Source of the DNA: Leucoraja ocellata
Taxonomy: Eukaryota
Assembly (NCBI GenBank): GCA_036785375.1
Contig: JAWMAR010000722.1
Location: 496,001 to 560,000 of the forward strand
Direction of reading: 5' to 3'
Length of the DNA: 64,000 nt
Positions 729-62,980 of this stretch are shown piece by piece; the stretch's first letter is position 1; each line of letters opens with the position of its first letter. The translations under genes were made by a program, and so were the position numbers. The notes beneath the pieces are model-generated. The model had not been told where the DNA came from, ran no database searches, and saw only the letters and a list, made by a program, of their open reading frames with translations.

Positions 729-1187
729 GCGGAATCAAGAATTAATAATTCTAAATAATTAAAGGACAGAAGTTTAGGGGTAACATGAGGGGTAACATCT
801 TTACTCATTCCACACAGTGGTAGCTGTGTGGAATGAGCTTCCAGTGAAGGTGGTGGAGGCAGGTTTGATTTTATAATTTAAAAATAAAGCGGAATCAAGA
901 ATTAATAATTCTAAATAATTAAAGGACAGAAGTTTAGGGGTAACATGAGGGGTAACATCTTTACTCATTCCACACAGTGGTAGCTGTGTGGAATGAGCTT
1001 CCAGTGAAGGTGGTGGAGGCAGGTTTGATTTTATAATTTAAAAATAAATTGGATAGTTATATGGACGGGAAAGGAATGGAGGGTTATGGTCTGGGTGCAG
1101 GTAGATGGGACTAGGGGAGGATACGTGTTCGGCACGGACTAGAAGGGCCGAGATGGCCCGTTTCCGTGCTGTAATTGTTATATGGTT
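729..1187 (+). mobile_element. CR1-family LINE 3' end fragment containing a perfect 160-bp tandem duplication (729-888 / 889-1048)
   Basis: CR1 ORF2 C-terminal and 3'UTR signature (gtgtggaatgagcttcca...gggccgagatggcccgtttccgtgctgtaattgttatatggtta); the two 160-bp units read identical. Confidence 0.8.
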
Positions 1188-6509: not shown

Positions 6510-7380
6510 ATGAAGATGGACACAAAGTGCTGGAGTAACTCAGCGACTCAGGCAGCATCTCTGGAGAAAAGGAATAGGTGAAGTTTCGGTTCGGAACTTC
6601 TTCAGACTGAAGAAGGGTTCCAACCCGAAATGTCACACATTACTATTCTTCCTATAAAGACTCTATCCCCTATTCCCAATTCCTCCGTCTGCACCTCATC
6701 TGCGTCCAGAATGAGGTGTTTCATACCAGGGCATCGGAGATGTCCTCATTCCTTAGGAAATGGGGGTTCTCCTCTTCCATTATAGATGAGGCTCTCACTA
6801 GGGTCTCCTCGATATCCCGCAGCTCCGCACTTTGTCCCCCTCCTCCCATTTGTACCAAAGACAGAGGCTCGGCAATCGTTTTGCTGAACACCTCCGCTCA
6901 GTCCGTCTTAACCTACCTGATTTCATGGTGGCCCAGCACTTCAACTCCCCTTCCATTCCCAATTTGACCTTTCTGTCCTGGGCCTCCTCCATTGTCAGAG
7001 TGAGGCCCAGCGTAAATTGGAGGAACAGCACCTCATATTTTGCATGGGTAGTTTACACCCCAGCGGTATCAACATTGACTTCTCTAACCAGGTAGCTCTT
7101 ACCTTCCCTCTCTAACCCCTCCCCCTTTCCAGTTCTCCCACTAGTCTCACTGTCTCCGACTACATTCTATCTTTGTCCCGCCCCCTCCCCTGACATCAGT
7201 CTGAAGAAGGTCTCAACCCGAAACATCACCCATTCCTTTTCTCCAGAGATGCCGCCTGTCCCGCTGAGTTACTCCAACATTTTGTGTTTACTTTTCTCCA
7301 ATGATGCAGCCTGACCCACTGACTCTAGCACATTGTGTCTATCTTCAGTAGAAACCAGCATCTTCAGTTCCGTCCTACAC
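6510..7380 (+). mobile_element. Penelope-like element fragment (RT/GIY-YIG linker, GIY-YIG end, terminal repeat with hammerhead motif; inverted arm at left)
   Basis: KDSIPYSQFLRLHLIC...EMSSFLRKWGFSSSIIDEALTRV and RLGNRFAEHLRSVR...VAQHFNS...LEEQHLIF motifs; ctgaagaaggtctcaacccgaaacatc at 7201-7227. Confidence 0.8.
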
Positions 7381-31128: not shown

Positions 31129-33737
31129 AACCTCCTTTGGCAATCTGACCAAAATCAGAATAACTAGTCAACTATCTCACTGTGGTCCCTGGAATCTGAA
31201 CATATCAGAATCAGAATAAATGGTGAGAAACCAGGAACCATTGAGGAGCAAGGTTGTTTGGGCATCCATGTATGTAACAGCACAATCAAAATCTACATTT
31301 TCCACACAAAAGGCATGGGGAAATAAGGGCCAGGCTGCTAGCCAACTGCCAAAGAGAAAACCTTTGCCGAGTACAACTCCTTTAAACGTTGCTCCTCTCA
31401 CCTCACGCTAGGTCAACTTATACTGTGATGTTTGAGAAGATTGTGATATTAACATAGAAAAGTACAGCACAGGAACCTGGAATATTTGCATCAAATATGA
31501 TGCCAAGTTAAACTAATCTCCGAAGACAGACACAGAAAGCTGGAGTAACTCAGCAGGTCAGGCAGCATCCCTGTAGAAAAGAAATAGGTGACGTTTTGGG
31601 TCGAAACCCACTGATTTACTCCATCTTATTGTGTCTGTTTCCAGTTTAAACCAGCATCTACAGATCCTTCCTACACATTTAAACTAATCTCATCTGCCTG
31701 CACGTGATCCATTATCCCTCCTTTCCCTGCATATACATGTGCCTAACTAAAAGTCTTTTAAATGCGACTATCAAATCTGCCTCCACCACCAACACTTAGA
31801 AGCACATTCCACCACACTCCGTGTAAAAGAACTTGCCGAGCACAACTCCTTTAAACGTTGCCCCTCTCACCTTTAAGCTGTGGCCTCTGGTCTCTGACAC
31901 TTCCAGGTACTTTGGTATTGAGTGATAAGGCAAGTTAATAGAATTGTGATGTGGCTCAGGCATGATGTGTTTTTGGCCTGTGTGCTAATGGGATGGCCAT
32001 GGCTCTGGTTTGCGTGGGAATGAATCCTCCGTGTCAATGGGGCAGCCGTAGACCTTGACTTGAGTTTTTGCGATTCAATTACCACTTTCTGAGTGAGAAA
32101 GTGAGTTGTACAGCACTAAAAAAGACTTCTGGGACGTGAAATTCTCCCTCAGTTAAAGGAGAATTAATGGGAAAGCTATACATCTTCAACTTTGCAACAA
32201 TGAGGCCTTATCCCATAAATATTCACACCAGGGCCAACTGTGTACTCCAGGGGTAGAATAAAAGATCTTCAAATATTTGCTACACCGAACTGTAGAGCAC
32301 AGAAATGGGCCCTTCCGGCTCATCTTGTCCATACCGATCATGATGCCTCTCTTCACCAATCCCTCTTGCCTGCCTCAGGCTCATATCCCTCTATGCCTTT
32401 CCTGTCTGTATCTGTTCACGTGCATTTTAAACACTGCAGACGTATCTGCCTTTACTACCTCCTGCAGCAGCTCATCCCAGATAGCCACCCACTCTGTGTG
32501 AAAAACCTACTCCTCAGTCTCCTTTAAATTTTGTCCCTCTCATCTTAAACCTGTGCCCTCTAGTTCTAGACACTACTGCCCTAGAAAAAAGAATTTAACT
32601 ATCCTATCTGTACCGTTCATAATTTTCTACGCCTTTACAAGATCATTCCTCAACTTCCTAGGCTCCAGTGAAAGGAACCTCAGCCTATTTAATCTCTCCT
32701 TACAACTGCAGTTCTTCATTCCCGATAACATCCCAATGAATCTCCTCTACATTGCCTCCATTGCCACACCTCCTCCCTGCCCTGTAATGAGCAAAATACT
32801 TCAAACACAATCCAAACAATCTTTTGAAGAAGGGTTTCGGCCCGAAACGTCGCCTATTTCCTTCGCTCCATAGATGCTGCTGCACCCGCTGAGTTTCTCC
32901 AGCAATTTTGTGTACCTCCAAACAATCTTTTCCCGTTTTCCCTCCCCTGCTACGATCAGTCTGAAGAGGAACCCTAGCCCAAAACATCACCCATCCATTC
33001 CCTCCACAGATGCTGCCTGACCTAGCGAGTTATCTCGTGTTTAGGATAATTTATACAATGTTTTGTACAACTGCAACATGACGTCCAGACTTCTATCCTT
33101 GATGCCTATGAAGGCTTTTACCACAGCTATAGTACCTGCAATAATCTCAGTGGTTCATCGCCATTTGTAATATATATATACTGTAAATGCCTTCATAGGC
33201 TAGGGTAATAAGAATAGTCGAGAAAATATCCATCCACCACTAACCCTTGCCTCCAATACTAAGCCTATGTTGGCTCCAGTTAAGTAACGCAGGGTGCAGG
33301 AAGGAACTGCAGATGCTGGTTTACACCGAAGATGGACATAACATGCTGGAGTAACTCAGCGGGACAGACAGTATCTCTGGAGAGAAGAAATGAGTGACGT
33401 TTCTTCAGTTTGTTGTAACCAATTCCTTCTCTCCCAAATAATGCAGAGGCTCTTTAGCAAGGATTAAAATAAACAACTGAAGCTTCACACCCGTTTTGGA
33501 ATGGTTTGAATGATTTTATGATCCATTTTTAAATGTAGTTATTGCTTTACTGGAAGGAAAGATGATTGTTGAAGGCAATTGTCAGTAGCCAATGCTTTTT
33601 TTTCATTATCTGGATCCTTGGGAATAGCACATTTGAAAAGCACTTATTTTCTACTTTTCATTCGTGAGTTATCAATCAAAACAAAATCAGCTCAAGCACT
33701 TATTACATCATAGGAAGGGAAGGTATTACCAGTAGGT

Positions 33738-45210: not shown

Positions 45211-45658
45211 TTGTGAATTCTGGAATTTCTCCTTTTATTTAACATACAGGATCTACAGCTTGTGGGTTTTTATGGTATGTGTATGTGCTGCCTATCCACA
45301 TGTTGGATATCTGTTCACCTGTTCTACAATATACAGCCGGATGGCAGGACTGATCCCCTCTCTATCTACTTTACTCAGTAGGGAGTCTTGTCTGAACACT
45401 AGAGTTCACTGCAGATTACTTATCTGCTACTCTGTCTGGGGAATGAGATTTGTCCTGTTAAATTAATATTCGGTAATTCTTGCCAAAGACAAACTTCCTG
45501 CGTGCATTGTTTATCTTGAGTTATGGCCATTTTTTTTTAACGAGCCAAAATTATGATGTAATTGAGCATTAGTGTAGGTTATTGTTATATTTCTTTTAAT
45601 AATCCAGGTTTTTATTGTATTTCAGGCACAGCCTTTGACGTGAAGTTCATGGTACATC

Positions 45659-45704
45659 ATGGTGACTGTTCGAAGAGTACTAGCATTATTTAGCATATCA
45701 TTAG
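45659..45704 (+). CDS. IGSF5: IGSF5-like, first coding exon (signal peptide MVTVRRVLALFSISL-G); exon spans 45626-45704
   Basis: Acceptor ttgtatttcag, strong Kozak atcATGG, in-frame upstream TGA at 45641, TAG|GTAAGT donor in phase 1 that joins the Ig1 exon to give ...FSISLGVCLSATIIEGP. Confidence 0.8.
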
Positions 45705-46306: not shown

Positions 46307-46468
46307 CCTTCTGGTTATGTTATAGGTTCCAAAAATTCCAAAGCATCCTTAAGTGGCTATAGTCTCAGGTGAGACTTTAAATAGATTGATCAGATCAGCA
46401 GATTGCCAGCTCACCGACATCCTTCAGAGACGGTCTCTGCTGCCCTTGCGTTGCCTGGCCTACATATA

Positions 46469-48060
46469 CAGTGGCTTGCAAACGTTTTCATACCCCTTGA
46501 ACTTTTCCACATTTTGTCACGTTACAACCACAAACGTAAATGTACTTTATTGGGATTTTATGTGATAGACCAACACAAAGTGGTGCATAATTGTGAAGTG
46601 GAAGGAAAATGATACATGGTTTTCAAATCTTTTTACAAATTAAAAACTGAAAAGTGTGGCATGCAAAAGTATTCAGCCCCCCTGAGTTAATACTTTGTAG
46701 AACCACCTTTCGCTGCAATTACAGCTGCAAGTCTTTTGGGGTATGTCTCTACGAGCTTTGCACAACTAGAGACTGAAATCTTTGCCCATTCTTCTTTGCA
46801 AAATAGCTCAAGATCAGTCAGATTGGATGGAGAGCGTCTGTGAACAGCAATTTTCAAGTCTTGCCAGAGATTCTCAATTGGATTTAGGTCTGGACTTTGA
46901 CTGGGCCATTCTAACACATGAATATGCTTTGATCTAAACCATTCCATTGTAGCTCTGGCTGGAAGGTGAACCTCCGCCTCAGTGTCAAGTCTTTTGCATA
47001 CTCTAACAGGTTTTCTTCCAAGATTGCCCTGTACTTGGCTCCATCCATCTTCCCATCAACTCTGACCAGCTTCCCTGTCCCTGCTGAAGAAAAATATCCC
47101 CACAGCATGATGCTGCCACTACCATGTTTTACAGTGGGGATGGTGTGTTCAGGGTGATGTGCAGTGTTAGTTTTCCGCCACACATAGCGTTTTGCATTTA
47201 GGCCAGAAACTTCAATTTTGGTCTCATCTGACCAGAGCACCTTCCTCCACATGTTTGCTGTGTCCCCCATATGGCTTGTGGCAAACTGCAAACGGGACTT
47301 CTTACGGCTTTTTTTCAACAATGGCTTTCTTCTTGCCACTCTTCCATAAAGGCCCGATTTGTGGAGTGCACGACTAATAGTTGTCCTGTGGACAGATTCT
47401 CCCACCTGAGCTGTGGATCTCTGCAGCTCCTCCAGAGTTACCATGGGCCTCTTGGCTGCTTCTCTGATCAATGCTCTCCTTGCCCGGCTTGTCAGTTTAG
47501 GTGGACGGCCATGTCTTGGTAGGTTTGCAGTTGTGCCATACTCTTTCCATTTTCGGATGATGGATTGAACAGTGCTCCGTGAGATGTTCAAATCTTGGGA
47601 TATTTTTTTATAATCTAACCCTGCTTTAAACTTCTCCACAACTTTATCCCTGACCTGTATGGTGTGTTCCTTGGGCTTCATGATGCTGTTTGTTCACTAA
47701 TGTTCACTAACAAACCTCCGAGACCTTCACAGAACAGCTGTATTTATACTGAGATTAGATTACACCCAAGTGGACTCTATTTACTAATTAGGTGACTTCT
47801 GAAGGCAATTGGTTGCACTGGATTTTATTTAGGGGTATCAGAGTAAAGGGGGCTGAATACTTTTGCAGGCCACACTTTTCAGTTTTTTATTTGTAAAAAA
47901 ATTTGAAAACCATGTATCATTTTCCTCCCACTTCACAATTATGCGCCACTTTGTGTTGGTCTATCACATAAAATCCCAATAAAATAAATTTACGTTTGTG
48001 GTTGTAACGTGACACAATGTGGAAAAGTTCAAGGGGTATGAATACTTTTGCAAGCCACTG
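46469..48060 (-). mobile_element. Full-length Tc1-like DNA transposon (IR/DR type)
   Basis: About 213-bp TIRs starting CAGTGGCTTGCAAA, TA target duplication on both sides, repeated gcaaaagtattca sites at the TIR ends. Confidence 0.97.
46687..47681 (-). pseudogene. Tc1 DD34E transposase, inactivated by a small deletion and frameshift
   Basis: Paired-like HTH, GRPPK, WSDETK and [11 protein letters not shown] are present; the QDNDPKH motif (second catalytic Asp) is missing near 46960 and the frame shifts there. Confidence 0.95.
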
Positions 48061-49070
48061 TACCTGTAACTCCAGGTCCATTAATGTGATTCACTCTTCC
48101 TCTCCAGCAGCTCAGCTAGGACTGGTACAGTGAATCTGGTTTAGTCAGTGATGTTCACCTTCTGTGTGTAAATTAAAAAATAATTATGCAACCAGCTTAA
48201 TCAAACAAAGGCCAGAAAACAAAACATTTATTTTTTGCTCTCCTAGAATTGTGAAAGGCTTGAATACAGTGGATGCGGAGAGGGAGAGTGGGAGAGTCTA
48301 GGACTAGAAGTCATAGCTTCAAAATTAAAGAACATTCTTTTAGGAAGGAGATGAGGAGAAATTTCTTTAGTCAGAGGGTGGTGAATCTGTGAAATTCTTT
48401 GCCTGTGGAGGCCAAGTCAGTGGATATATTTAAGGCTGAGATAGATAGATTCTTGATTAGTATGGGTGTCAGAGGTTATGGGGAGAAGTCAGGAGAATGG
48501 GGTTAGGAGGGAGAGATAGATCAGCCATGATTGAATGGCAGAATAGACGATGGGTCGAATGGCCTAATTCTACTCCTGTCACTTATGATCTTATGATCTC
48601 TCCCTGATTATGAGGTAACATATTTTTTAAATGCAAACGCAGTTGCACAATGGTAGCACTGCTGCCTCACAGTGCTAGAGACCCTGATGTTAACACGGGT
48701 GCTGTCTGTGTGTGTTTCGTGTGACCGTGTAGGTTTTCACTGGGTGCTCCGTTTTCCTCCCATATCCCAAAGATGTGCAGGTTTGTAGGTTAATTAGCTC
48801 TTGTAAATTGTGCCTGGTGTAGATGCATAAGTGGGTTAACATGGATATTGTGTGGATGGGTGGCCGATGGTCGGCCTGGACTCTGTGAATACTTCCTAAA
48901 TGTTATGATTTCCCCATCCCTGCAGCCAGTGTGTACCAGATCTCAACAGCACAGTGGGTGTTGTAAACGTTTTCCTTCAAGTCACCTCGAAATCTTCGAC
49001 CCCCTCAACTTAAACCTGCGCCCTCTGGTCATGAACATCTTTCTGGGTGGAAACGTTCCTCACTACTTTT

Positions 49071-49357: not shown

Positions 49358-51101
49358 TTCTTCACCGACAGTTACACTTTTGATTGCCTTTATTTGAACA
49401 TCTGGAATCCCTTCCATAAATCTGTCCACTTTGCTCTCTTTCCTCAGAAATGTCTCCTAAAACATCTAATGCATGACTTATTTTGTTTAATAGCAACTTT
49501 GGGGCATTAACAGCCTACGAAACATCTCAAATATTTTGTTACATTAAAAGGTTTACAATAGAAAGTGTTTGTGCTGTTAGTTACCAGTGATTCATCATTT
49601 AGTTCTGTGTCAACATTCAACCTACACTGGTGTGATGGGAGTCCAATCTGTCAGCTACAATCATATGTTAAATAAGGCTTGACTATCCCAATCTGCTTCT
49701 AAGGGGATAGAGGGCTGTGGCAGTACACTGCTCACTCTTGGCAATGTCGCCGATAGGCCTAAGGTACTAAGCGTGGGCAGTGAATATAAGTGTCACACTG
49801 GAACAATACAAGATCTTCTTCCAAATTAGAGGGTGTGGAGAATAAGCATAGGTTTGATCTGCGAACTGTATTTGACCTGGGAAATGCCAGGTGCTAAGCT
49901 GAAAATTGGGAAGAATTTAGTTTTTTTAGTTTTAGAGATACATAGAAAATAGGTGCAGGAGTAGGCCATTCCTCCCTTCGAGCCAGCACCGCCATTAAAT
50001 ATGATCATGGCTGATCATCGACAATCAGTAGCCGGCTTTCTACTTTCTCCTAGAAGGGTTTTGGCCCAAAACGTTGCCTATTTCCTTCGCTCCATAGGTG
50101 CTGCCGCACCCGTTGAGTTTCACCAGCAATTTTGTCTACCTTCTCCCCATATCCCTTGATTCCATTAGCCCTAAGAGCTCTATATAACTCTCTCTTGAAT
50201 ACACCGTGGATATAGGCTGTTTCCACGCTGTATCCCTAAAAACGAAACAGTAATTATTTTTAATCTATCCATTTATCACGCCCTGTACAGTGCCTAATAT
50301 TTCCAGGTAAGTATTGTCAACAGTTATCTCTCCCCAGAGAAATTACATAGAATTGTCAGGGTCTAGACTTCTGTGTTTATTTCCCTGCAATAAGACTTGA
50401 AATACATTTTCTGAGTCAGAGGCGAGAGTGTTCCCAACTGAACTATAACTGGTCTTAATAGTTCAGATTCTTTGATCTTCAATGTCCATTTCTCCTTCAT
50501 CACATTATTCCATTGGAGACAATGCGTTGTGGGTGTTGTGTAACCTACTATCAAGTGCAAATGTCACATCCTGTTATTTATTGGGGACTGAGATGAAGAA
50601 GGGTCTCGACCCAAAAATGTCACCCATTCCTTCTATCCAGAGATGCTGCCTGCCCCGCTGAGTTACTCCAGCATTTTGTGTCTATCTTCGGTGTAAACCA
50701 ACATCTGCAGTTCCTTCCTTTACATTTTCCAATAGGTTCCGTTGCCTTTCAGATGTGAGTTGCGTTCAGACATCACCAGATACTCCCATACACCAAAAAA
50801 TTGTCACAGGCCTATTTATAGGCCTCTGTGCTTGAATAGCTTTCCTCTCTTAAAATTAGACAATCTTATATATTTGACATTGGCTACATTTCACAGTAGT
50901 GTAGTTAGATTCACATTGCCTTTGAAGTCTCCACTTAATGATACCCAGACCCTGTGGAAAATTTACGAGTGCAGTACGACTGTTATGGACTTGAAAGTCA
51001 AGAGTACTTTTAATGTCAATTTTTTTCCCCCTTTCTTTCAGATTCATCCTGTAGATTGACTGAATTGTACTGTTACTCACTATCAACTGTTTATCTTTTA
51101 G

Positions 51102-51416
51102 GTGTGTGTTTATCGGCTACAATCATAGAAGGTCCAAAAGATGCCTTTGCTTTGGTTCACTCTGATGCCGCATTCAACTGCACAGTATCATTGAATTGGA
51201 AAATTATCATCTGGATGATAGGGCGCATACCCATCCTTACCGTTGTAAAAGAAGGACCAATTGAAACAAATCCCCAGTTTGGACATCAGAACTACTCAAC
51301 TACGACCACATTTATTTCCGAACTCATCATCTCAAGGGTAACCATGCAAAACAATATGACAGTACAGTGCAACATTCAAACCGAAGAATTTCGACAGGCA
51401 TTTCTGTTTGTACAAG
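51102..51416 (+). CDS. IGSF5: IGSF5-like, Ig domain 1 exon (315 nt, phase 1-1)
   Basis: IIEGPKDAFALVHSDAAFNCTVSLNWKIIIWMI...FISELIISRV...VQCNIQ...AFLFVQ matches the recalled IGSF5/JAM4 pattern VIEGPQN...ARFNCTVSQGWKLIMW; ttatcttttag acceptor and AAG|GTCAGT donor. Confidence 0.9.
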
Positions 51417-51428
51417 GTCAGTATAATT

Positions 51429-51842
51429 TTCACTGCACACCTCCGCTCAGTCAGCATGAACCTACCTGATGTCCCGGTGGCCCAGCACTTCAACTCCTCC
51501 TCCCATTCCCAATCTGACCTTTCAGTCCTGGGCCTCCTCCATTGTCAGTGTGAGGCCCAGTGAAAATTGGAGGAACAGCACCTCATATTTCACTTGCGTA
51601 GTTTAGACCCCAGTGGTATCAACATTGACTTCTCTAACTTCAGATAGCCCTTGCTTTCTCTCTCCATCTCCTTCCCCTTCACAGTTCTCCCACTAGTCTT
51701 ACAGTCTCCAACTACATTCTATCTTTGTCCCACCCCTTCCCCTGACATCAGTCTGAAGAAGGGTCTCGACCTGAAACGGCGCCCATTTCTTCTCTCCAGA
51801 GATGCTGCCTGACCTGCTGAGTTACTCCAGCATTTTGTATCC
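51429..51842 (+). mobile_element. Penelope-like 3' fragment inserted next to the IGSF5 Ig1 splice donor
   Basis: HLRSV...VAQHFNS...KLEEQHLIF...PSGINIDFSNF, hammerhead-like core at 51753-51780; flanked by aggtcagtataatt and aggtcagtgtaatt. Confidence 0.85.
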
Positions 51843-53947
51843 AGGTCAGTGTAATTCTTTGGTGCAAATAAACAACTTCTACTTTCTAAACTTAGAGTTA
51901 TAGAGTCATAGAGTCATACAGCATGTGAGAAGGCTCTTCATCCCAACTTGCCCAGGCCAACCAAGATGCGCCATCTATACAAGTCCCATCTGCCTGTGTT
52001 TAGCCCATATCCCTCTAAACCCTTCTTATCTATGTACCTGTCCAAATGTCTGTTAAATGTTCTTATGGTACTTGCATCGACCACCTCCTCTGGCAGCATG
52101 TTCCCACCACCATCTATGTGAAGAAGTTGCCCCTCAGGCTCCTATTAAATCTTTAAAGTAGACTGGCCAGGAATTTTTGATTGAAGAGGATCTTCCGGCA
52201 GATGAAATATAGTTGTGGGTTTCGGCCCGAAATGTTGCCTATTTCCTTCGCTCCATAGATGCTGCTGCACCTGCTGAGTTTCTGCAGCATTTTTGTGTAC
52301 CTCCTATTAAATCTTTCCCCACTCACCATGTTCTCTGGTTCTTGATTCCCCTATTTTGGGTAAAGGATTCTGTGCATTCAACATATCTATTCCAGAATAG
52401 ATAGTGTAGATGCACAGTATTTCTTGAGTCAGAATCTGGAATCTGGGACTGTTGTCTGTTGACCAGAGATAGTTAATGGAATGATTAATAATCTATTCAA
52501 CTCCCTTTTTAACAATCCCTGTTCAAATTGTGAAGGGTTTAACAGAGAAGACAGGGTCATCAATGATGAATATTTTAATAAGAGGACCGGATTTTTTTTA
52601 CTAAAGTATGTTGTTTGATCTGAACACGTTACCTGAACGAGTGTTTGGAGCAGCTTAAATAATATTTTCCAAAGGGAATTGGAGAAATTCTTAAGAAACC
52701 ATTTTCAGAGTATTGAGTGGAGTGGATTGGGACAATTTTTTTTCCTGAAAGGAACAATTGGTGAAAGTAGGAACAAAGACCTACAGATGCTGTTTTCATA
52801 AGTTCATAAATGATAGGGGCAGAATTAGGCCCATCAAGTCTACTCCTCCATTCAATCATGGCTGATCTATCTCTCCCTCTTAACCCCATTCTCCTGCCTT
52901 CTCCCCATAACCTCTGACACCTCTTAAATAAAAAGACACACATGCAGCACCGCTGGAGAACATGGATAGGTGACGTTTCGCGTCGGGTCGGAAAATTGTA
53001 TGATTCCTGGAAAACTGAAAATGCAATTATATTTGGAGATTAGAGAGCATTGATAGGAAAGAGATTTCAGATTTGGTGACTATATCCTTTCATTGGAAAT
53101 AAAAGCTATTTGATTTGAACAAGTTTCAACAAGACTGCATGGTCCAAGGGCACGATGGCCTGCAGAGGGGAGATGATTGAGTAATTATCCTTTTAATCAA
53201 GCTTGGTGGCTACAAACGGCTCACATTAATTTTATGTACTTGGTTTCCATATGACTATCATTATTTTCGACACATTTTCTGAAAGAATTACCAAGTTATT
53301 TTATTAGAAAAAAGGTTGTAGTTTATGTGCTCATTTCTCCACTCTATAAAGGGAGGAAAGAACAAAAGGGTTGATTAGATGTGATTAATTGACCGAAGGC
53401 ATGCTGATGCAGGAGAAAGTGACAGGAAAAAAGGAAATGATAAAAAGATGGATGCAGAGAAGGTGACAATGATCACAGGAGCATTGCTGTATGTTTGGAA
53501 AGTCAGGCAAAGGTTGGAAATGCACAATTTACTAGTTTTGATGATATGCCACCTCTTAGTATTTTCAGCATGATATTTCCTTGTGTATTTCATTCCAATT
53601 CTCTCTCCTTCCCCTCTTTTTTGTTATTGCGTATGAATAGGGAGCAGGCAAAAGATACTCAGACCCTCTTGCCTGCTCAGCCATTTTATAACTTCATGGC
53701 TGATCTGTACCAACCAACAGAAAAGAACATTGGAGCACAAGGAATTGCAGATACTGGAATCCTGTGTGAAATACAAAGTACAGGAGCAACTCAGCGGGTC
53801 AGGCGGCGTCTGCGGAGGAAATGGACAGACGCATTTTGGGATGGGACTGTAGAAGGGTCTGAAGAAGGGTCCCAACCTGTAATATTGTCCGTCCATTTCA
53901 ATCATATTTGTTGTTTAAGAAGGAACTGCAGATGCTGGAAAATTGAA

Positions 53948-54098
53948 GGTGCACAAAAATGCTGGAGAAACTCAGCAGGTGCAGCAGCATCTATGGAGCG
54001 AAGGAAATAGACAACGTTTCGGGCCGAAACGTTGCCTATTTCCTTCGCTCCATAGATGCTGCTGCACCCGCTGAGTTTCTCCAGCATTTTTGTGTACC
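53948..54098. repeat. 151-bp near-perfect palindrome of Penelope terminal-repeat arms
   Basis: 75-bp arms around a single G at 54023; three non-Watson-Crick positions by eye. Confidence 0.9.
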
Positions 54099-54178
54099 AT
54101 CGTATTTGCTGCCTGACCCGCTGAATCATTCCAGCACTTTATGCTTTGAGAAAAGAACATTCAATTGCAGCTCTGAAT

Positions 54179-62680: not shown

Positions 62681-62980
62681 TTGAAGGCCAGCTATCTTTT
62701 GCGACGGACATTTCATCTATTGAGCAAAACCGTGTCTTCGTCATTGTCTGTAAGGCAGAAGGCTGGTATCCTGCACCAGCTATCCTATGGAAAAAAAACA
62801 ACACAACCATTGATTCAAAAATGTACTCCACCACTGTCCATCAGTCTTCAGAAAATCGCTACAATACCTTCAGCACTTTAAACCTTACCCTTAGTGTCAG
62901 CTCTAAGATTACGTGTCTGGCCAACATTAAAGCTCTTCCTCAGCCTAGAACTACTGCGCTATTCATCACAGTGAAGCCAA
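62681..62980 (+). CDS. IGSF5: IGSF5-like, Ig domain 2 exon (300 nt, phase 1-1)
   Basis: VEGQLSF...VIVCKAEGWYPAPAILWKK...STLNLTLSVSSKITCLANIKAL...LFITV with C-W-C Ig core; ttctccccacag acceptor, CAA|GTAAGT donor; in frame with the previous exon. Confidence 0.9.

What the first reader, a model, noticed from the sequence alone, without database searches (positions are those of the whole stretch)
51415..51856. A Penelope insertion duplicated the IGSF5 Ig1-exon splice donor
Seen: the insert 51429-51842 is flanked by aggtcagtataatt (51415-51428) and aggtcagtgtaatt (51843-51856). This apparent target-site duplication includes the exon donor, so a second donor CAG|GTCAGT sits 428 nt downstream of the normal AAG|GTCAGT. 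Read-through past the first donor gives ...FVQGQYNFHCTPPLSQHEPT* (stop at 51467-51469). Inference: use of the distal donor would give either an NMD target or a secreted signal-peptide plus single-Ig isoform. A degenerate hammerhead core (51753, GGC triplet) lies between the two donors.
Basis: partly seen in the sequence, partly recalled or inferred. Interest (0 to 1): 0.7.

Follow-up and report, generated by a model that had tools for sequence, protein, structure and literature searches.

The report
Retrotransposon copied a skate splice donor
In a skate gene for a cell-adhesion protein (IGSF5), a broken jumping-gene fragment sits just inside an intron between two copies of the exon's splice signal, likely duplicated when it inserted; the spare signal is likely little used, though it could close a small disruptive extra exon, which is untested.

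Summary
A 414-nt, 5'-truncated, sense-strand Penelope-like fragment (51429-51842) sits 12 nt inside the intron after the IGSF5 Ig1 exon (51102-51416). It is flanked by 14-mers identical at 13 of 14 positions, both holding AG|GTCAGT. The repeat lies exactly at the element ends, is far above chance (3 of 20,000 random pairs), and another family copy has a perfect 13-nt repeat, so it is very likely a target-site duplication. No empty site was seen. The copy is old and dead: about 4% private changes, a stop in the endonuclease tail, a GGC hammerhead triplet. The element carries a very pyrimidine-rich acceptor (AG 51683-84), which with the copied donor defines a 160-nt frameshifting cassette exon (51685-51844). 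The proposed 743-nt exon extension is less likely, and would be an NMD target rather than a secreted protein. No RNA junction data were obtained, so use of the second donor is untested. Most likely a tolerated relic with at most low-level cryptic splicing; the ingredients are known mechanisms.

The parts
45626..45704 (+). IGSF5 exon with the start codon (ATG 45659) and signal peptide; donor TAG|GTAAGT
   Evidence: tblastn of P0001 residues 1-16, 100%; splice sites read
51102..51416 (+). IGSF5 Ig1 exon, 315 nt, phase 1/1
51415..51428 (+). left copy of the 14-nt repeat, holding the normal donor AG|GTCAGT
51429..51842 (+). 5'-truncated Penelope-like fragment in the gene's sense orientation, without the optional 3' tail
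   Evidence: 87% to the copy at 6884-7285 over 406 nt; alignment; ends where 27 of 41 family copies end
51435..51647 (+). C-terminal 70 codons of the endonuclease ORF with one internal TGA, followed by the TAG stop
   Evidence: 75% identical to the C-terminus of XP_055496363.1, whose upstream part has a weak GIY-YIG hit (E 0.008, below cut-off) with a CxxC
51467..51469 (+). stop codon met on read-through of the normal donor (137-aa product)
51632..51684 (+). branch-like CTCTAAC, pyrimidine tract and CAG acceptor supplied by the element
   Evidence: 19 of 20 and 32 of 36 pyrimidines, top 0.1% of 2,040 YAG sites in the window; the same YAG is present in c6884, c42816r and c22874, so it is a subfamily feature; branch motif recalled
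51685..51844 (+). predicted 160-nt cassette exon (frameshift, stop at 51810-51812); use untested
51753..51781 (+). minimal type I hammerhead core with GGC instead of the family's GTC; predicted inactive
   Evidence: no hammerhead match in Rfam; monomer fold not hammerhead-like, z -0.31
51800..51844 (+). alternative 45-nt in-frame candidate exon from a weaker acceptor (15 of 20 pyrimidines)
51843..51856 (+). right copy of the 14-nt repeat: second donor CAG|GTCAGT; its AG could also act as a weak acceptor (zero-length exon)
51867..51872 (+). AATAAA 23 nt after the second donor; not above chance
   Evidence: 49 in the window, P = 0.30 for one in 460 nt
62681..62980 (+). IGSF5 Ig2 exon
   Evidence: C2-set_3, E 1.3e-9

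Best explanation
A 414-nt, 5'-truncated Penelope-like fragment with a broken endonuclease tail sits 12 nt inside the intron after the IGSF5 Ig1 exon, between two 14-mers that likely are its target-site duplication, and the normal donor likely still makes nearly all mRNA. Inferred mechanism: staggered nicks either side of the exon-intron border were filled in after target-primed reverse transcription stopped early, copying AG|GTCAGT(A/G)TAATT. The upstream copy keeps the 315-nt exon intact, so the insertion was tolerated and has drifted (about 4% private changes, one mismatch between the copies). The spare donor is 428 nt away. If used at all, it would most likely pair with the element's own acceptor to give a rare 160-nt frameshifting exon that NMD would remove. 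The hammerhead is a family hallmark, predicted dead, with no role here.
For: Repeat at both element ends, far above chance. A second family unit has a perfect 13-nt flanking repeat (31508-31520 / 31679-31691). The 3' end falls where 27 of 41 copies end; the other 14 carry a 30-40 nt tail, as described for PLEs (PMC8557442 passages). Age: 48 of 402 sites differ from the nearest in-window copy and 16 of 396 are private, which predicts about 1 mismatch in 14. Of 13 chondrichthyan IGSF5 proteins, 12 join Ig1 directly to Ig2, 1 skips Ig2, and 0 carry an insert or end after Ig1. A 362-aa form lies on a 1,925-nt contig, i.e. a spliced transcript. A perfect donor CAG|GTAAGTAT at 50306 with a 209-nt pseudo-exon sits in the previous intron and appears in none of those proteins. 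Strong unused intronic pseudo-exons are a recognised class (PMC2095810 passages).
Against: No junction reads were obtained, so low use is inferred, not shown. The second donor scores slightly above the normal one on a simple U1-pairing count (9.5 vs 9), and the element's acceptor is more pyrimidine-rich than all three real acceptors. Protein sets cannot show NMD isoforms, and it is unknown whether the species carry the insert. No empty allele was seen.
Confidence: 0.65

Rival explanations
1. Poison exon: the element's acceptor (51685) and the copied donor (51844) define a 160-nt cassette that is included at a meaningful rate (5% or more) and lowers IGSF5 through NMD.
For: Acceptor in the top 0.1% of 2,040 YAG sites with a 35-nt AG-free zone and a branch-like motif; donor in the top 0.1% of GT sites; ordinary exon size; the only pair in 64 kb passing 18 or more pyrimidines and U1 score 9 or more. 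A Rhinoraja NMUR1 gene model ends in this same element tail, a lead that the family can enter skate gene models.
Against: Thresholds were set after seeing the values, and the score misses the real Ig1 and signal-peptide exons; at looser settings 5 and 16 pairs pass. The tract is C-rich (8 U of 20) and inherited from the subfamily, not built up in this copy. The NMUR1 model's RNA support was not checked.
Confidence: 0.15
2. One reading: the distal donor competes directly, extending the Ig1 exon to 743 nt and giving an NMD target or a secreted signal-peptide plus single-Ig protein.
For: The two donors are near-equal in U1 pairing; the 137-aa read-through product is real on paper.
Against: A 743-nt internal exon between 5.4-kb and 11-kb introns is far above usual sizes (median 122 nt in PMC2095810 passages; about 300-nt exon-definition limit recalled). 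The stop lies 375 nt before the junction, predicting NMD. No protein with the read-through tail was found, which is weak evidence.
Confidence: 0.05
3. Ratchet site: the element is removed as a 428-nt intron (51417-51844), using the AG of the second copy, which rebuilds the ancestral donor for a second splicing step and hides the insertion.
For: The second copy reads CAG|GT with a CTGAC motif 33 nt upstream and 13 of 20 pyrimidines, like the real signal-peptide-exon acceptor. This is the geometry of intron gain by insertion into AGGT (PMC3443670 passages).
Against: 20% of YAG sites score as well; competing AGs lie 14 and 23 nt upstream; much stronger acceptors lie inside the element. The mature mRNA would be unchanged, so nothing requires it.
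Confidence: 0.06
4. Intronic polyadenylation at AATAAA 51867 turns exon plus element into a terminal exon, giving an NMD-immune secreted Ig1 of 137 aa.
For: AATAAA 23 nt past the second donor; early stop at 51467.
Against: Chance of such a hexamer is 0.30 and the downstream region is only 29% U; a donor so close would recruit U1 and suppress cleavage (recalled).
Confidence: 0.04
5. The two 14-mers are not a target-site duplication but a chance match or a later local duplication.
For: One mismatch. The 3' junction is blurred: the target reads TTTGTAC-A and the element end TTTGTATCC just before the repeat. Only 3 of 30 element blocks beat the random maximum, so most copies show no clear duplication.
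Against: Exact fit to both ends, chance about 1.5e-4, and a similar-length perfect repeat at another unit.
Confidence: 0.05

Closest known systems
Canonical endonuclease-bearing Penelope-like elements (Penelope/Poseidon type; PMC8557442 and PMC3846280 passages, PMC11167929 parts 1-2 of 4)
   Same: C-terminal endonuclease tail followed by a 3' repeat with a minimal hammerhead; strong 5' truncation; optional 30-40 nt tail; inverted terminal-repeat pairs in the window; variable-length duplication; AT-rich target edge (AATT; the Anolis element prefers ATT).
   Different: Only the last 414 nt are present; no RT and no GIY/YIG motifs in this copy, so the clade was not placed. The 14-nt duplication is longer than the 8-10 nt in the rotifer passages. 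The target end resembles the element's 3' end (TTTGT), whereas the Anolis element starts without homology in vitro.
Intron gain by transposon insertion into AGGT, and introners that take a splice site from the duplication (PMC3443670, PMC11282704 passages)
   Same: The target-site duplication copies AG|GT to both sides of the element.
   Different: Here the target is an existing donor, not coding sequence; the result is a second donor, not a new coding-region intron. Introners are mostly DNA transposons with shown splicing; splicing is not shown here.
Retrotransposon pseudo-exons, e.g. the SVA in BRCA1 intron 13 (PMC8046837 passages)
   Same: Intronic insertion with a 14-bp duplication; one splice site from the element and one from the host give a premature-stop exon seen under NMD inhibition.
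   Different: There the element gives the donors and the host a cryptic acceptor, and the products were sequenced. Here the element would give the acceptor, and the donor is a copy of the gene's own authentic donor; the insertion is old and untested.

Membership tests
Penelope-like element (EN+) | C-terminal GIY-YIG endonuclease with CCHH motif | tested here: inconclusive
   The insert holds only the C-terminal part and has no Pfam hit. It is 75% identical to XP_055496363.1, whose next upstream segment has CxxC and a sub-threshold GIY-YIG hit, E 0.008. That model looks chimeric, so its RT was not used as evidence.
Penelope-like element (EN+) | Telomerase-related RT in the same ORF; clade by RT tree | not testable with these tools
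Penelope-like element (EN+) | Minimal hammerhead motif in the terminal repeat | tested here: met
   Core CTGAAGA, helix II, GAAA at 51753; 13 such cores in the window, 5 with GTC.
Penelope-like element (EN+) | 5' truncation, optional 30-40 nt tail, tandem or inverted units | tested here: met
   27 of 41 copies untailed and 14 tailed; 5 of 30 blocks hold both strands.
Target-site duplication | Direct repeat at both element ends, above chance | tested here: met
Target-site duplication | Single copy at the orthologous empty site | not tested
   No orthologous DNA obtained; the metagenome scan gave 4 short non-orthologous matches.
Active hammerhead ribozyme | Intact core with an NUH cleavage triplet (rule recalled) | tested here: not met
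   GGC in place of the family's GTC, a private T-to-G change at 51779.
Exonised transposon / poison exon | Acceptor and donor at exon-like spacing with a premature stop | tested here: met
   160 nt, stop at 51810-51812; crude scores only.
Exonised transposon / poison exon | Inclusion seen in RNA and raised by NMD inhibition | not tested
   No junction data were obtained.
Transposon-derived intron or recursive splice site | Precise removal of the element at 51416^51845 seen in RNA | not tested
   Geometry present, acceptor weak; no RNA data.

The most novel reading that the evidence does not exclude
One Penelope insertion built a working poison exon in a single step: the element's pyrimidine-rich 3' region gave the acceptor and the target-site duplication handed it a copy of the gene's own authentic donor, so skate IGSF5 gained an NMD switch; or the copied AG|GT acts as a ratchet site that splices the element out without trace. 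Sense-strand copies of this abundant family would then be ready-made exon donors across skate genomes.
Probability: 0.2. Interest if true: 0.55.

Novelty: new member of a known kind. Interest (0 to 1): 0.25.

Why it matters
As it stands it is a tidy single case of a dead retrotransposon landing on a splice donor and being tolerated, which is ordinary. If RNA showed the 160-nt exon or the ratchet junction in use, it would be a clear natural example of a target-site duplication supplying an authentic donor to an exonised Penelope element. I found no such case in searches of an open-access library, which is limited evidence. The test is cheap: four junction counts in existing skate RNA-seq.

Tried and rejected
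Run search: 17 holders under 5 organism labels, no RNA holder listed; this is no evidence on expression. No read depth, junction count or relative's DNA was obtained for the locus, so distal-donor use and the empty site stay open. Protein searches with the Ig1 exon plus read-through tail, meant to catch an isoform or a relative's intron start: none at 66-212 aa among 2 candidates; 97 hits in the representative library, none aligned past query residue 112 of 121. Metagenome scan: 4 of 52 candidate stretches passed, all short and non-orthologous, not used. Rfam at E up to 1 found no hammerhead; its miRNA-like hits at 53965-54080 come from an inverted pair of terminal repeats. Folding of five hammerhead regions gave no hammerhead fold and no significant z-score. 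MaxEntScan is not available; a U1-pairing count and pyrimidine counts were used instead (consensus recalled). The earlier-findings index had nothing by place, words or sequence. Rejected: an active ribozyme, and a secreted protein as the product of the distal donor. The IGSF5/JAM4 literature search (listing only) showed no title on a secreted IGSF5 isoform.

Full report
Observation. The two 14-mers, the 428-nt spacing of the donors, the read-through peptide and stop, and the hammerhead core with GGC are all at the stated coordinates. The host gene is IGSF5 of a skate. The exon 51102-51416 matches proteins named IGSF5 in Amblyraja radiata (82%) and sharks (59-62%). The three exons in the window (ATG 45659, 51102-51416, 62681-62980) give 220 residues that differ from Leucoraja erinacea XP_055501114.1 at 8 positions.

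The insert. 51429-51842 matches many places in the window, best 6884-7285 at 87% over 406 nt. Its first half encodes 70 residues with one internal stop, 75% identical to the C-terminus of an L. erinacea model whose adjoining segment has CxxC and a sub-threshold GIY-YIG hit. The insert has no Pfam hit of its own. Its second half is the terminal repeat with a minimal hammerhead core. Among 41 copies of this repeat end, 27 stop where the insert stops and 14 carry a 30-40 nt tail (a 200-nt stretch of the long intron was excluded from the counts, and rows dropped were not recorded). Truncation, optional tail, inverted units and hammerheads are the features described for Penelope-like elements (PMC8557442, passages; PMC6155905, passages; PMC11167929, parts 1-2 of 4). 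The clade was not placed because no RT is present.

The duplication. A match of 13 or more of 14 near two boundaries arose in 3 of 20,000 random pairs, and in 0 of 4,989 and 0 of 4,986 trials with one real flank. A blind scan of 30 of 36 element blocks (those of 70 nt or more) found this repeat 1 nt from each end with score 11; the random maximum was 8 in 300 trials. Two other blocks beat that maximum: a perfect 13-mer at 31508/31679, and a score-9 match whose right copy lies inside the element end. Most copies show no clear duplication. The insert differs from its nearest in-window copy at 48 of 402 sites, 16 of 396 private, which fits one mismatch in 14. The 3' junction is blurred by similarity between target and element end. 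No empty site was seen. I put the duplication at about 0.9-0.95.

The hammerhead. Of 13 cores in the window, 5 have GTC; this copy has GGC through a private T-to-G change. By the NUH rule (recalled) it is predicted inactive. Rfam and single-strand folding gave no hammerhead. In the Anolis element, ribozyme mutants did not affect insertion (PMC11167929).

Splicing. A simple U1-pairing count gives 9 for the normal donor and 9.5 for the copy. Extension to the copy would make a 743-nt exon with a stop 375 nt before the junction, a predicted NMD target. The element, however, carries an acceptor at 51683-84 with 19 of 20 upstream pyrimidines (top 0.1% of 2,040 YAG sites), a 35-nt AG-free zone and a branch-like CTCTAAC. 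With the copied donor it defines a 160-nt exon behind a 268-nt intron, with a stop at 51810. Of 25 AG sites in the insert, 23 lead to a stop. The exceptions are a 45-nt in-frame exon from 51800 and the zero-length site at 51845, which would rebuild the ancestral donor. These scores are crude: they miss two of the three real exons, and the thresholds were chosen afterwards. The acceptor is inherited from the subfamily, so it is no sign of selection. A perfect donor at 50306 with a 209-nt pseudo-exon in the previous intron shows that such pairs occur here, and unused strong pseudo-exons are a known class (PMC2095810, passages). Of 13 chondrichthyan IGSF5 proteins, 12 join Ig1 to Ig2 directly, 1 skips Ig2 and none carries an insert. 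This is weak evidence, because NMD forms leave no protein and the insert's presence in those species is unknown. No RNA junction data were obtained.

Comparison. Duplications that supply splice sites are known from intron gain at AGGT and from introners (PMC3443670, PMC11282704, passages). Premature-stop pseudo-exons from intronic retrotransposons are known in human genes (PMC8046837, passages). Rotifer Penelope copies have 8-10 nt duplications or none (PMC3846280, passages). Searches showed no case of a Penelope duplication copying an authentic donor, in a library that lacks most subscription journals. No supplements were read; they may hold such cases.

Verdict. The anatomy is real and well explained as an old, dead, sense-strand Penelope-like fragment with a likely 14-nt target-site duplication over the Ig1 donor. 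Most likely (0.65) the normal donor does nearly all the work. The best functional alternative is a 160-nt poison exon (0.15), ahead of a ratchet site (0.06), exon extension (0.05) and intronic polyadenylation (0.04). Interest 0.25; about 0.55 if use is shown.

Noticed in passing
window 31508-31691: An inverted pair of the same terminal repeats (31521-31678) is flanked by a perfect 13-nt direct repeat, a second likely target-site duplication of this family.
   Followed up: partly
window 50098-50314: A perfect donor CAG|GTAAGTAT at 50306 and an acceptor inside another element copy define a 209-nt pseudo-exon in the intron before Ig1.
   Followed up: partly
window 51102-51416: Ig1 varies much more than Ig2 among skates: 17 vs 6 differences to A. 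radiata, and the 4 Ig1 differences to L. erinacea cluster at residues 98-112. This could reflect selection on the distal domain.
   Followed up: no
P0105 (XP_078266213.1): The Rhinoraja longicauda neuromedin-U receptor 1 model ends in the same element's endonuclease tail, in frame: a real exonisation or a gene-model artefact.
   Followed up: no
P0007 (XP_072369323.1): A Scyliorhinus torazame model joins Ig1 directly to the exon after Ig2, giving a single-Ig membrane form.
   Followed up: no
window 53912-54127: Head-to-head inverted terminal repeats form a long hairpin that gives sub-threshold miRNA hits in Rfam.
   Followed up: partly
window 33797 (minus strand): The only hammerhead core among 13 that keeps CTGAAGA, GAAA and CGTC unchanged.
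   Followed up: no
window 729-1048: Exact 160-nt tandem duplication, 100% identical; a recent event or an assembly artefact.
   Followed up: no
window 46461-46681 and 47848-48068: 221-nt inverted repeat at 95% identity in the first IGSF5 coding intron.
   Followed up: no
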